DNA of 35,677 bases, from positions 1 to 35,677 of the forward strand of contig JBHLON010000032.1 in assembly GCA_048940445.1 (NCBI GenBank), given 5' to 3'. Shown here piece by piece: positions 3,012-31,609 of this stretch. A program made the translations under genes and the position numbers. Origin of the DNA: Promethearchaeota archaeon. GTDB taxonomy: Archaea > Asgardarchaeota > Lokiarchaeia > Sigyniarchaeales > SOKP01. The notes under the pieces are model-generated. The model ran no database searches. It was not told the DNA's origin and saw only the letters and a list, made by a program, of their open reading frames with translations. Each line of letters begins with the position of its first letter. Positions within the stretch are counted from its first letter, which is position 1.

Positions 3012-4040
3012 TTAATTTGGATCTAAAATTTCCTTTGCTAAAGCTGTTCCATATACCTCTTTAGCTAATTTTTTAATTCCCTCTATCCCAATTGGTTCAT
3101 TAATAAGACGATTCGATTCCCAAATTTTCAATTGCTTAAATTCCTTTTTAATCTCTTCAATGAATTTTAACTGGCTTTCACGTAAACTATTACAGAAGTT
3201 GCATTTTTTTGCTTTAGGAGTGATCATGTTTATATGAACAGCATGAAGGGAAATGTACCTTTGAGTCAAATCACGTGCTCTTTTTACTTCTTCAAAGCTA
3301 GGGCGCTCTGCAATAGTTACTAATCTTAAAGATCCAACATTATGAATTAATTCACTTATTCGTTCTCCTCTTTTTTCAAGTTCTACGATCATATTAAATA
3401 TTTCTTTTCCTAATTCTCTTCTCTTTTCATAACTACCGTCATCAAATGGTTTAACTATCTGTCTAAACATTTTAGACAAATTTCTAATGGCACCTTTTAT
3501 CGAATTATAGAAGTTTAAAGAATATTTTAGAACAACTTTTACTTGGTCTTCAGGAATTTCAAATAGTGCAACCATGTTTCCTGTAGGAGGAAAATCAGCT
3601 ACAATTATATCAAATTGGATGTCTTGAGTATTAATATCTTCAGCATCTAATAATTTCTGAAAAAACATTGCATTTTTTAAAGCTAGCGGGATAGAATCAG
3701 CCGTAAAACTAGTATTTATAAATTTTTCGATTTGTGGTAAACTTCCGATAATTGGCATTTGTTTTGTCAGATTTTTCATTTTTTCCACTAAATCTTTGGT
3801 ATATTGTTCAGCATATAAGTCTGGATCTGGCTCAATCGCCCATAAATTATCCGTTATTGGAGATACTTTACTTTTAATAGTAATTCCAAAGATATCAGTT
3901 AGATTATGAGCTATATCAAATGATATTAATAAAACTTTTTTATCTGGGAGTAATTCTGATAATCTAAGAGCAGTTGCTGCACTAATTGAGCTCTTTCCAA
4001 CCCCACCTTTTCCTCCAAACACAATAATTTTTTCAATCAT
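3012..4040 (-). CDS. arsA: ArsA/GET3 (TRC40)-family ATPase, single domain
   Basis: FGGKGGVGKSS P-loop, SFDIAHNL switch I-like, DFPPTG switch II-like, C-terminal CNFC, EPIGIEGI. Confidence 0.85.
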   Translation of the reverse strand: MIEKIIVFGGKGGVGKSSISAATALRLSELLPDKKVLLISFDIAHNLTDIFGITIKSKVSPITDNLWAIEPDPDLYAEQYTKDLVEKMKNLTKQMPIIGSLPQIEKFINTSFTADSIPLALKNAMFFQKLLDAEDINTQDIQFDIIVADFPPTGNMVALFEIPEDQVKVVLKYSLNFYNSIKGAIRNLSKMFRQIVKPFDDGSYEKRRELGKEIFNMIVELEKRGERISELIHNVGSLRLVTIAERPSFEEVKRARDLTQRYISLHAVHINMITPKAKKCNFCNSLRESQLKFIEEIKKEFKQLKIWESNRLINEPIGIEGIKKLAKEVYGTALAKEILDPN

Positions 4041-4518
4041 TTTTATATCCTTTAAAATGAAGAAAGTAATTATAATTTATTTTTTGTAAATTAACTCTTA
4101 AAAATAATGCTAGTATAAATTAGAGTTCTTTAGGAAAAAAAATAATTTTTCCATTAAATTGAGAATTTTCATTTTTAGCTTCTTTTTCGAAGTAAAAGTA
4201 AAAACGCCCGACTGAAGTACATAATCTGAATTTGATGCTTTTTTTATTTATTTTATAAATTCTTTTCAATAAGACATTGTTCCAATAGAGACTCATCAAT
4301 AAAGCTTCGAACTTATGATTTAAGAATTTATATCCTATGAGGATGTTATCACTTAGCAAAAAATAAATGGGATGAATAATTTACCTAATATGATCATTTG
4401 TATATCGATGATTGTTTATTAAAATATCAAAAAGAAGAAACTAAATTGGTTCAAAAGTTTTGAAATTTTCTAAAATCATAATTATCTCATTAGAATTTAA
4501 TAAAATTTAATAATAAAA

Positions 4519-5749
4519 ATGGAAGTGATCAAGATTACCAATAATCAAGTAGACTTTACTACAAAATATATTATTGAAGCAAAATTTGAAATTAAAGGAG
4601 TGGTTGAAAAAAGCGATATAGTCGGTGCCATTTTCGGTCAAAGATAATGAAAAAAGCCAGTTCGGCTCAATCGGCTAAACAGAGGGTCTCCTTTTAGATC
4701 TTGATTTAAGAGATCTTCAAAAATCAGGACGAATTGGAAGAATCGAAGTAGAAAACGAATCTAAGGAGGGACTTTCTATAGGAATTATAAAAATTCCATC
4801 TTCTTTAACTAGAAAGGAGACTGCATTATTGGCAGCGACTGTTGAAACTGTTACTCGTGTAGGACCATGCGAAGCTCAAATTAAATTAATCGAAATTAGA
4901 GATGTAAGAGAAACAAAACGAAAAAAAATTATTGAGCGAGCAGCAGAGTTATTAAAAGAGTGGGATCAAAAATCACTAGAACCAAGTGAGATTGAAGAAA
5001 AAATAGATACAGATATTAAACTTGGTGAAATAATAAAATGGGGTCCCGAAGGATTGCCAGCGGGGCCAGAAGTGGAAACTAGCGACGAACTGATTATAGT
5101 GGAAGGCCGAGCAGATGTATTAAACTTACTAAGAATAGGGATCAAAAATAGTATAGCAGTTCAAGGAACTCATATCCCAAAATCAGTAATAGACCTAGCA
5201 AAACAAAAAAAATCAATTACTATTTTTACCGATGGGGATCGTGGGGGTGAATTAATAACAAAAGAATTAATGCAGCTAATTAAAGTGGATTTTATTGCTC
5301 GAGCACCTGATGGATATGAAGTTGAGGAATTAACTAGAAAACAACTGATTAAATCTCTTCAAAATAAAAAAACTACGACAGAATCATCAGAAAAGACAGG
5401 AAGCGTCCCTCCAATTAAGGAAAAGAAATCTGTAGAAACTCTTATAAGTAAACTTCTTAAAAAGCTTAAAGTTAAAAACCAAAATACAATAATAGATGCA
5501 ATAAATACAATCTCTCGAGATTTTAGTATAGGATTTAACAATAAACTTGAGAAACTATTTGAACTCCCAGTTAAAGAATTGTTTGAAGAGATTGGTAAAT
5601 ATGGCAAAACTGAATTTTTACTTATAGATGGGATCCTAACAAAACGTCTCCTTTCAGAAGCATTAAAGTTGAAAATAAAATTTATCGCTTGTAAAAACAA
5701 GGAAGAAGATTTAAATATCCCAGATCAAATCATTATTTATTATTTTTAA
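4519..5749 (+). CDS. dnaG: Archaeal DnaG (Toprim; exosome-associated primase-like protein). Exons 4519-4641 and 4679-5749 join to give ~397 aa
   Basis: Exon 1: MEVIK..KYIIEAKFEIKGVVEKSDIVGAIFGQ. Exon 2: TEGLLLDLDLRDLQKSGRIGRIEV..RVGPC..IIVEGRADV..FTDGDRGG..ARAPDGYEVEELT. The ORF track start at 4829 misses the N-terminus. Confidence 0.9.
4642..4678 (+). other. Putative 37-nt bulge-helix-bulge-type mRNA intron in dnaG
   Basis: Removal restores FGQ|TEGL in frame; GGUC(4636-39)/GGCU(4673-76) 4-bp helix flanked by AAA bulges (4640-42, 4677-79). Confidence 0.8.
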
Positions 5750-6180
5750 ATATTTTTTTTAAATATTTCTTTACATTCAACATTTAACGGTATTCCGTTT
5801 ACTAGAGAATCTGAAACTACACAATATTGTTTAAATTCATTTATACAAGTGTCTGCTTTCTCTCTAAATGAATTATCTTCTAATTCGTATAAAATAACGA
5901 TATCAACCTGCACTAATCTCAAATTTAAAGTTGGACCTTTATGTTTTATCTTCCCATCTATTACTATCTTTAAATTACTTACTTTAATGGTTTTCTTGGT
6001 TAGACAATACATAAATGAACTTCCTAGACATCCTCCTATTCCAATTAATAAATATTCAACCGGACTTGGGCCTAAATTAGTTCCATGAAACGATTCTGGT
6101 TCATCTATATCAAGATTATTAAAATCCCTAACAGCTGCTTTAAAGTGGAGGTTTTTTTGATGGGTTATTTTTACTTGCAT
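5746..6180 (-). CDS. OsmC/Ohr (YhfA-like) family protein
   Basis: IDEPESFHGTNLGPSPVEYLLIGIGGC..YCVVSDSL; ATG at 6180 (MQVKI) fits the domain start better than 6324. Confidence 0.85.
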   Translation of the reverse strand: MQVKITHQKNLHFKAAVRDFNNLDIDEPESFHGTNLGPSPVEYLLIGIGGCLGSSFMYCLTKKTIKVSNLKIVIDGKIKHKGPTLNLRLVQVDIVILYELEDNSFREKADTCINEFKQYCVVSDSLVNGIPLNVECKEIFKKNI

Positions 6181-6328
6181 AATTAAGTTTAGTATCCTGG
6201 TAATATAATTAATTTTTAATATTCTTATCTCTTTTTTTAAGGTTACTAATCCTATATTATATACAAAATTGGAAATAATCAAAATAAAATATTTAACAGT
6301 CATTAATAATGTATTATGGTCCAAACGA

Positions 6329-30070: not shown

Positions 30071-30174
30071 CGGGCCTAGCAGGATTCGAACCTGCGACAT
30101 CCCAGTCCGAAGCCGGGCACCCTTTCCGTTAATTTCAGTTATAGAAACTTAAATCCAGACTAGATTATAGGCCC
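30071..30174 (-). tRNA. tRNA-Arg(TCG) with ~30-nt D-loop intron (~30123-30153)
   Basis: On the minus strand: acceptor GGGCCTA/TAGGCCC, anticodon arm CCCGG-CTTCGGA-CTGGG, T arm GCAGGTTCGAATCCTGC. Confidence 0.9.
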
Positions 30175-30266
30175 TGAATTAGGGAATCAAAGAATAACTA
30201 TATAATTCTTTTATATTTCCATTCTAAAAAAATTTTTCATGACTAGATTAAATATAACTCTTTTTC

Positions 30267-31471: not shown

Positions 31472-31609
31472 GCCCACATAGTGTAGAGTATGTCTTTATT
31501 TAAAAGATACGCAAAACCCGGCCCAGCATTCGGGACTGTCACTCCTGCGACGCGGGTTCAAAATAATGTGTGTTTTCCACATATGAAGAAAATCCCGCTG
31601 TGGGCGCCA
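31472..31609 (+). tRNA. tRNA-Asp(GTC) with two introns (15/16: 31487-31516; T loop: ~31562-31591), CCA encoded
   Basis: Acceptor GCCCACA/TGTGGGC + G + CCA, anticodon arm CGGGA-CTGTCAC-TCCTG, T stem GCGGG/CCCGC. Confidence 0.88.

What the first reader, a model, noticed from the sequence alone, without database searches (positions are those of the whole stretch)
4630..4687. Candidate tRNA-endonuclease-type (BHB) intron inside the protein-coding gene dnaG
Seen: the conserved archaeal DnaG motif GAIFGQ-TEGLL is split exactly between Q and T by 37 nt (AGATAATGAAAAAAGCCAGTTCGGCTCAATCGGCTAA, 4642-4678). The insert shifts the frame, has TAA-TGA in the upstream frame and TAA in the downstream frame; both flanks are otherwise intact. 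Seen: the junctions fold as a 4-bp central helix GGUC(4636-39)/GGCU(4673-76) with 3-nt AAA bulges (4640-42, 4677-79), an intron stem GAU/AUC + UGA/UCA + GCC/GGC, and a weak, shifted exon-exon helix (AUUUUC/GAGGGU), so the motif is relaxed on that side. Cutting after the second base of each bulge, the archaeal EndA rule, removes exactly these 37 nt and restores the frame. Established: archaeal mRNA introns are rare, the crenarchaeal cbf5 BHB intron being the known case, and archaeal DnaG is an exosome-associated RNA-binding protein. Inference: this organism splices an mRNA with its tRNA-splicing machinery, possibly coupling DnaG production to RNA-processing capacity. Standard gene callers would miss it.
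Basis: partly seen in the sequence, partly recalled or inferred. Interest (0 to 1): 0.95.

Follow-up and report, generated by a model that had tools for sequence, protein, structure and literature searches.

The report
tRNA-type mini-intron splitting Asgard dnaG
The only dnaG gene found in this Loki-type Asgard archaeon is broken by a 37-base insert shaped like the introns that archaea cut out of tRNAs, and dozens of relatives carry matching inserts, so the messenger RNA very probably has to be spliced; the papers I could search confirm this for the coding part of only one other archaeal gene (cbf5).

Summary
Confirmed at the stated coordinates. Removing 4642-4678 gives a 397-aa DnaG, the only copy found in this Lokiarchaeia genome. 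At the same codon boundary, 51 of 136 distinct Lokiarchaeia dnaG genes read (sample enriched for split genes) carry 29-43-nt inserts. All 51 keep the 4-bp exon-intron helix, the intron base tracks the exon's Gly wobble base, and all have an in-frame stop within three codons. Only the EndA cut register restores the protein in all 43 genes tested. Inserts with different interiors sit at this site in two Asgard families outside the class, and three neighbouring sites of the same motif carry similar introns elsewhere. The genome encodes a two-subunit EndA with the broad-specificity loop, RtcB, tRNAs with similar introns, and such inserts in purA, mevalonate kinase, uL11, a GH38 and a UvrA-like gene. 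Best reading: EndA/RtcB-spliced mRNA intron (0.9). Splicing is inferred; I obtained no RNA evidence. The exon-exon helix and a regulatory role are not supported. This scan noted the same dnaG intron before in other genomes.

The parts
4519..4641 (+). dnaG exon 1 (41 codons, ends in the Gln codon CAA; start of the N-terminal RNA-binding domain)
   Evidence: NF003108 positions 1-26; under purifying selection in intron carriers: 373 synonymous vs 121 non-synonymous codon differences, no stops
4642..4678 (+). 37-nt phase-0 intron (3n+1)
   Evidence: same-site inserts in 51 distinct Lokiarchaeia genes and in two independent assemblies of close relatives, L276 and L277
4679..5749 (+). dnaG exon 2 (356 codons plus stop; rest of the N-terminal domain, TOPRIM, C-terminal domain)
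4636..4639 (+). exonic strand GGUC of the 4-bp central helix
   Evidence: 100% paired, one pair with changes on both sides
4673..4676 (+). intronic strand GGCU of the central helix
4640..4642 (+). 5' 3-nt bulge AAA; predicted cut 4641/4642
   Evidence: register 0 is the only one restoring FGQTEG in 43 of 43 genes
4677..4679 (+). 3' bulge or loop AAA; predicted cut 4678/4679; followed by a C-C mismatch (relaxed exon side)
4643..4672 (+). intron-side helix GAU(4643-45)/AUC(4670-72), enclosing an A-rich linker and the hairpin GCC(4656-58)/GGC(4664-66)
   Evidence: 92% and 100% of cells paired
4645..4650 (+). TAA-TGA stops that end the unspliced message after 42 residues
   Evidence: a stop within three codons in 51 of 51; about 0.20 per intron expected from shuffles
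31472..31609 (+). tRNA-Asp(GUC) with two ~30-nt relaxed-BHB introns (about 31487-31516 and 31562-31590); an obligatory substrate of the same machinery
   Evidence: not called by ARAGORN as it stands; called after both removals

Best explanation
The insert is a small endonuclease-type intron in the dnaG pre-mRNA. The exon end GGUC pairs with the intron end GGCU. The AAA bulge and the GAU/AUC stem complete a relaxed bulge-helix-bulge, with the intron-side helix kept and the exon-side helix not. The two-subunit EndA cuts after the second base of each bulge (4641/42 and 4678/79), RtcB joins the exons, and the spliced mRNA gives a 397-aa DnaG. Unspliced messages stop after 42 residues. Shown: the split, the geometry and its conservation, the register, and the presence of the enzymes. 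Inferred: transcription, cleavage, ligation by RtcB, and the protein. The intron is most likely a tolerated passenger, one of at least 7 in 6 protein genes of this genome, sitting in a conserved motif that has gained, lost or exchanged such introns repeatedly.
For: Single dnaG in a 93%-complete genome. Same-site inserts of all three phases (23 of 3n+1, 16 of 3n+2, 4 of 3n, the last all with stops). Central helix intact in 51 of 51, with the Gly wobble base and its intron partner matched: C:G 26, U:G 11, A:U 7, G:C 5, G:U 2. Slid structures pair 25-54% against 93.8%. Register 0 fits 43 of 43; other registers fit 0-42. Introns with different interiors sit at the same site in another family of the order (L024) and in two families outside the class. 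Three further sites each have an intron end that pairs with its own, different exon sequence: GCCU/GGGU-type in 14 of 14 genomes, AGAU/AUCU-type, and GUAG/CUAC-type. The EndA alpha subunit has the Tyr/His/Lys catalytic motif and the loop KPR, matching A. pernix K44/R46, which confers cleavage of relaxed motifs (PMC3241643). A second EndA-family subunit lacks the His, and RtcB is present. Genome scan: 9 of 479 structure-only candidates restore an ORF in the EndA register against 0-1 in four shifted registers. In a motif-free comparison, both high-scoring frame-breaking inserts have the motif.
Against: The single-sequence fold is weak (z -0.20; two G-U pairs in the helix) and the exon-side helix is missing. 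The covariation rests on few independent events (about 3-5 changes on the tree; the independent-pairs test has no power). Two outside-class introns and one upstream-site intron have only 3 of 4 helix pairs. The filter of the genome scan (A-led bulges, 26-45 nt) was chosen after seeing examples, and one of its 9 hits is false (two tandem ABC genes).
Confidence: 0.9

Rival explanations
1. Translational bypass or programmed frameshift: the ribosome hops over the insert, as in T4 gene 60 (from my own knowledge), helped by the stop codon and hairpin just after the take-off codon.
For: A stop follows within three codons in 51 of 51, followed by a hairpin, which is the anatomy of known hops. PMC2738675 notes that cbf5 introns were once confused with frameshifts.
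Against: The take-off codon (CAA/CAG) equals the last insert codon in only 1 of 43 genes. Inserts come in all three phases, which excludes a fixed frameshift. A hop does not explain why the intron end pairs with exon positions -6 to -3 at four different sites.
Confidence: 0.03
2. The gene is translated as two pieces (a 42-aa peptide plus a re-initiated C-terminal protein), or only as the truncated protein that databases annotate.
For: Gene callers predict exactly this. A separate primase PriS is present, so DnaG need not be essential for replication.
Against: Exon 2 has no conserved start: the first possible start codon lies at codons 5-71, or none within 80; here it is codon 51. Residues right up to both sides of the junction are invariant. 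The N-terminal domain is the RNA-binding domain (PMC4227792).
Confidence: 0.03
3. Decaying pseudogene, or an assembly or sequencing artefact.
For: The genome is a fragmented assembly (139 contigs, 93% complete). One relative (G022, 6% contamination) holds both a split and an intact copy.
Against: Dozens of independent assemblies carry the insert at the same boundary, including close relatives from other samples. Both exons are intact and conserved, and synonymous changes dominate. The intron-carrying clade of this genome is 7 of 7 on the tree.
Confidence: 0.01
4. The intron is spliced as described but is kept by selection as a regulator that ties DnaG (an exosome subunit) output to EndA/RtcB activity. 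This is an add-on to the best explanation, not an alternative to splicing.
For: Four sites within about 15 codons of dnaG carry introns in several Asgard lineages. The early stop is universal. An exosome Rrp41-like gene is present. cbf5, the known case, is also an RNA-processing protein.
Against: Presence is patchy within one genus, with 10 changes on the tree and at least 5 forced. The site was uninterrupted in the genes read from the sister family. purA, mevalonate kinase, GH38 and uL11 carry the same kind of insert. Conserved motifs are also where inserts are easiest to detect.
Confidence: 0.12

Closest known systems
BHB intron of the cbf5 pre-mRNA in Desulfurococcales and Sulfolobales (PMC2738675; Watanabe 2002 and Yoshinari 2006 as cited there)
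   Same: Small intron in a conserved coding motif, with an unconventional BHB. Cuts fall after the second bulge base, and it occurs with a hetero-oligomeric EndA. It shows lineage-specific loss and is missed by annotation.
   Different: Different gene and lineage (Asgard). Here there are four intron positions within one motif rather than one, and it is one of several protein-gene introns per genome. cbf5 splicing is proven by cDNA; this one is not.
Non-canonical tRNA introns of Asgard archaea (bioRxiv 10.64898/2026.10.13.758758)
   Same: Sit at BHB-type boundaries, were gained repeatedly, and are often missed by standard software. Similar ~30-nt introns are in tRNA genes of this window.
   Different: That study covers tRNA genes only ('mRNA' and 'cbf5' occur 0 times). 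The substrate here is a translated message.
BHB processing in the 5' UTR of HVO_1309, Haloferax volcanii (PMC7714728)
   Same: An mRNA handled by the archaeal splicing endonuclease.
   Different: It lies outside the coding sequence, and the alpha2 enzyme needs a strict motif. The paper names cbf5 as the only other mRNA case.
IRE1/RtcB splicing of XBP1 mRNA in animals (own knowledge; RtcB-complex role also in the abstract of 10.1101/2025.08.01.668163)
   Same: Short, frame-shifting, non-spliceosomal mRNA intron sealed by a tRNA ligase.
   Different: It is cut by IRE1 at two separate stem-loops and is stress-regulated. It is an analogy only; no homology was tested.

Membership tests
Archaeal EndA-type (BHB) intron | 4-bp central helix between the exon 1 end and the intron end | tested here: met
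   51 of 51 at this site in Lokiarchaeia; unaided RNAalifold consensus
Archaeal EndA-type (BHB) intron | Cuts after the second base of each 3-nt bulge remove exactly the intervening sequence | tested here: met
   register 0 is the only one that restores FGQTEG in all 43
Archaeal EndA-type (BHB) intron | Intron-side helix h' | tested here: met
   GAU/AUC-type, 92% of cells paired
Strict hBHBh' motif | Exon-side helix h directly flanking the second bulge | tested here: not met
   the first pair is a mismatch in all carriers and the further pairs are patchy; the motif is the relaxed form, described as unconventional for most cbf5 introns too
Archaeal EndA-type (BHB) intron | Host encodes an EndA able to cut relaxed motifs, and an RNA ligase | tested here: met
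   two EndA subunits, alpha with the K44/R46-type loop; RtcB. Sequence-level only
Archaeal EndA-type (BHB) intron | The intron is actually excised and the exons ligated in RNA | not testable with these tools
Archaeal DnaG (PRK04031) | N-terminal domain plus TOPRIM, score above the family cut-off | tested here: met
   exon 2 alone scores 363.9 bits against a cut-off of 300; exon 1 covers profile positions 1-26
Translational bypass element (gene 60 type) | Matching take-off and landing codons | tested here: not met
   1 of 43
Group I / group II self-splicing intron or other Rfam family | Catalytic RNA core, match to a covariance model | tested here: not met
   37 nt; no Rfam match at this place down to E 0.05

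The most novel reading that the evidence does not exclude
Several Asgard lineages routinely splice protein-coding mRNAs, including essential ones (uL11, purA, mevalonate kinase, dnaG), with their tRNA-splicing enzymes. The mini-introns are still moving: the conserved dnaG motif has been occupied at four positions, and in at least one lineage a similar intron body sits 22 nt upstream of the site used by its sister taxa, as if relocated. This would be a working, genome-wide, spliceosome-free mRNA intron system in the closest prokaryotic relatives of eukaryotes.
Probability: 0.6. Interest if true: 0.9.

Novelty: new variant of a known kind. Interest (0 to 1): 0.8.

Why it matters
In the papers I could search, archaeal coding-sequence splicing is confirmed for cbf5 only (PMC2738675, PMC7714728), and none links dnaG, BHB and intron. 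If this intron is spliced, Asgard archaea have mRNA introns in core genes. Public annotations of these genomes then truncate or split proteins (for example a 338-aa DnaG in NCBI for the nearest relative), which biases gene-content claims about the origin of eukaryotes. It also offers a compact test system for two open questions: how BHB introns arrive, and how an mRNA is spliced in a cell where translation is thought to be coupled to transcription. The scan has reported this dnaG intron and similar ones in other genomes, so this is a further instance with added evidence rather than a first sighting within the scan.

Tried and rejected
RNA evidence: no RNA holder was listed for window 4300-5800, so read laying could not be used; this is no evidence either way. 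Exact spliced-junction patterns for this clade and for the downstream-site family found nothing in the JGI collection. No full-length database protein was more than about 90% identical to a carrier's spliced product. An earlier AI note (e1-5589140) claims an RNA data set with a 40-nt dnaG intron removed; I could not check it. A permissive de novo BHB scan gave no excess over shifted controls; only the restricted class did. Single-strand folding was not significant. The independent-pairs tests were underpowered. The careful tree did not finish; quick and FastTree trees were used and are unrooted, so gain and loss cannot be told apart. The minus-strand terminator-like hit at 4654-4668 is just the intron hairpin read backwards and was rejected as an explanation. 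The candidate at C56:9027-9070 was rejected as a junction between two ABC ATPase genes. No solved archaeal DnaG structure was found, and no fold was run because the spliced protein has no reference.

Full report
VERDICT. The insert is real and is very probably an endonuclease-spliced mRNA intron (0.9). Splicing is inferred from comparative evidence; I did not observe it.

1. THE OBSERVATION. The 37 nt at 4642-4678 are as described. The gene starts at ATG 4519. Unspliced, it reads ...GAIFGQ R and then two stops; without the insert it is one 397-aa frame. Exon 1 matches positions 1-26 and exon 2 positions 27-277 of the archaeal DnaG model, so no residue is missing or added. It is the only dnaG found in the genome, which is 3.64 Mb, 139 contigs and 93% complete. 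The window alone is weak evidence for the mechanism. Four registers give the same protein. The proposed fold is the minimum-energy structure of 4636-4679 but is no more stable than shuffles (z -0.20), and longer flanks favour other folds.

2. ORGANISM AND DISTRIBUTION. The nearest records are Promethearchaeota/Lokiarchaeia bins. In the first, unselected sample, 33 of 96 distinct dnaG genes had an insert at the same Gln/Thr boundary. After deliberately fetching more split genes the count was 51 of 136, with lengths of 29-43 nt. Two contigs from other samples, close to this genome, carry 36-nt versions, which excludes mis-assembly. The site was uninterrupted in the genes read from the sister family f2. 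On the protein tree the insert needs 10 changes, at least 5 forced by well-supported branches; the root is unknown.

3. WHY IT IS A SPLICING SUBSTRATE. (a) Among 43 genes, the lengths are 3n+1 in 23, 3n+2 in 16 and 3n in 4, and all four 3n inserts contain stops. No single frameshift or read-through rescues the gene. (b) Only removal exactly after the Gln codon gives FGQTEG in all 43; other registers give 0-42. This is the position predicted by cutting after the second base of each bulge. (c) The four exon bases before the bulge pair with the four intron bases before the last two in 51 of 51. The freely variable Gly wobble base is tracked by its intron partner: C:G 26, U:G 11, A:U 7, G:C 5, G:U 2. 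RNAalifold, given no structure, predicts exactly these four pairs. Sliding the partners drops pairing from 93.8% to 25-54%. The caveat is that this is only about 3-5 independent changes. (d) More independent evidence comes from other lineages. Inserts with different interiors occupy the same boundary in another family of the order (L024, GGGC/GCCU, z -2.6 on its own) and in two families outside the class (GGCC/GGUU, GGUC/GACC; two genes have 3 of 4 pairs). (e) Three more positions in the same motif are interrupted: 13 nt downstream in 14 of 14 genomes of family f17, 22 nt upstream in four genes of this family, and 33 nt upstream in two genomes of another order. In each case the intron end pairs with its own exon sequence. 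No gene read carried two of these introns. (f) Exon 1 in carriers shows 373 synonymous against 121 non-synonymous codon differences and no stops.

4. The intron-side helix (GAU/AUC) and the GCC/GGC hairpin are conserved. The UGA/UCA stem is particular to this genome. The shifted exon-exon helix is made of amino-acid-constrained bases, and its free wobble position is unpaired in 17 of 37. The motif is therefore the relaxed form. A feature not stressed before: every one of the 51 introns places a stop (TAA, TGA or TAG) within three codons of exon 1, against about 0.20 for shuffled introns, and the other two frames do not show this. This may be selection to end translation of unspliced messages, or a by-product of the GAU stem; related sequences are not independent.

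5. THE MACHINERY. The genome encodes two EndA-family proteins. One aligns to A. pernix EndA alpha (3P1Z, E 3e-38) with the catalytic Tyr/His/Lys motif and the loop SKPR opposite EKPR. The paper on that enzyme shows that this loop and its Lys44 give broad specificity for non-standard and bulge-helix-loop introns (PMC3241643). The other protein lacks the His and is the likely structural subunit. RtcB is present. Two subunits are also found in the other intron-carrying lineages and in one intronless genome tested, so the enzyme permits the introns but does not predict them. Two tRNA genes in this window are read by ARAGORN only after ~30-nt relaxed-BHB introns are removed, so the cell must already process such motifs.

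6. NOT ALONE IN THE GENOME. A permissive scan showed nothing over controls. I then restricted it, after seeing examples, to 26-45-nt inserts with A-led bulges: 9 of 479 candidates restored an ORF in the EndA register, against 0-1 in shifted registers. Verified by protein motif or family: purA (inside the WGDEGKG Asp codon), mevalonate kinase, a GH38 hydrolase and a UvrA-like gene (also against an intact homologue from a relative), and uL11 with two introns read by eye. One hit was false (C56) and three are unverified. A motif-free comparison with about 440 reference proteins from relatives found two high-scoring frame-breaking inserts, both with the motif. That suggests very roughly 10-20 per genome, an extrapolation from two events. 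Several of these genes were leads from earlier scan notes, which I re-tested.

7. MECHANISM. Shown: split gene, conserved geometry, unique register, enzymes encoded. Inferred: the pre-mRNA folds, EndA cuts twice, RtcB ligates, and the product joins the exosome as in Sulfolobus, where the N-terminal domain binds RNA (PMC4227792; Rrp41-like gene present; PriS present). Rivals are ribosomal hopping (landing codon matches in 1 of 43), a two-piece or truncated protein (no conserved restart) and decay or artefact; together they total under 0.1. A regulatory purpose is possible (0.12), but the patchy distribution and the unrelated host genes favour a tolerated passenger. One hint on mobility: L065 lacks the intron at this site although it lies inside a carrier clade (support 99). 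It has a 31-nt intron 22 nt upstream, whose hairpin GUC-AUUUC-GAC resembles the GCC-AUUUC-GGC of its sisters. Relocation or replacement is an inference.

8. COMPARISON AND NOVELTY. It works like the cbf5 intron and meets every sequence-level criterion of an EndA intron except the exon-side helix, which most cbf5 introns also relax. Excision was not testable. Eight searches on archaeal introns found no paper on dnaG introns or on Asgard mRNA introns; the library lacks most subscription journals, and PMC2738675 mentions earlier unconfirmed predictions for other genes. Taken alone the intron is a new member of the cbf5 kind. The multi-gene, multi-site pattern makes it a new variant. The scan has noted this intron on other DNA several times; those notes are not independent evidence. 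Interest 0.8.

Noticed in passing
G000 C134:73775-73804(-), C78:74261-74291(-), C78:67401-67430(+), C63:31206-31236(-), C61:~46030-46150(+): BHB-type inserts of about 29-38 nt in purA, mevalonate kinase, a GH38 hydrolase, a UvrA-like gene and uL11 (two), each in a conserved motif.
   Followed up: yes
G000 C139:6059-6092(+), C14:2477-2516(+), C81:27444-27475(+), C42:13813-13854(-), C87:3976-4005(-): Further scan candidates (the first upstream of a lysA-like domain, the second upstream of an APS-kinase-like domain); junctions not verified and may be false.
   Followed up: partly
L227-L238, L240, L242 (family f17): A different 28-31-nt BHB intron 13 nt downstream, inside the second Leu codon of GQTEGLL, in 14 of 14 genomes read.
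   Followed up: yes
L056, L065, L099, L278: 30-31-nt introns 22 nt upstream (inside the Ile codon of SDIV) in genes lacking the Gln/Thr intron; three have interior hairpins resembling the Gln/Thr family, suggesting relocation.
   Followed up: partly
L173, L189 (family f6, another order): 37-nt BHB introns after the Glu codon of VE-K/R-PD, 33 nt upstream.
   Followed up: partly
window 31472-31609 (+) and about 30071-30175 (-): tRNA-Asp with two introns and tRNA-Arg(UCG) with one, missed by ARAGORN until the introns are removed.
   Followed up: partly
G022 C91 and C40: One relative holds both a split and an intact dnaG; the bin has 6% contamination, so this may be a binning mix.
   Followed up: no
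window 3012-4040 (-) and 5746-6324 (-): dnaG is flanked by a divergent GET3/ArsA ATPase (also in the close relative L276) and a convergent OsmC-like gene whose end overlaps the dnaG stop.
   Followed up: no
P0001, P0122, P0198, P0215 and others: Public databases hold only N-terminally truncated DnaG (305-361 aa) for intron-carrying clades.
   Followed up: yes
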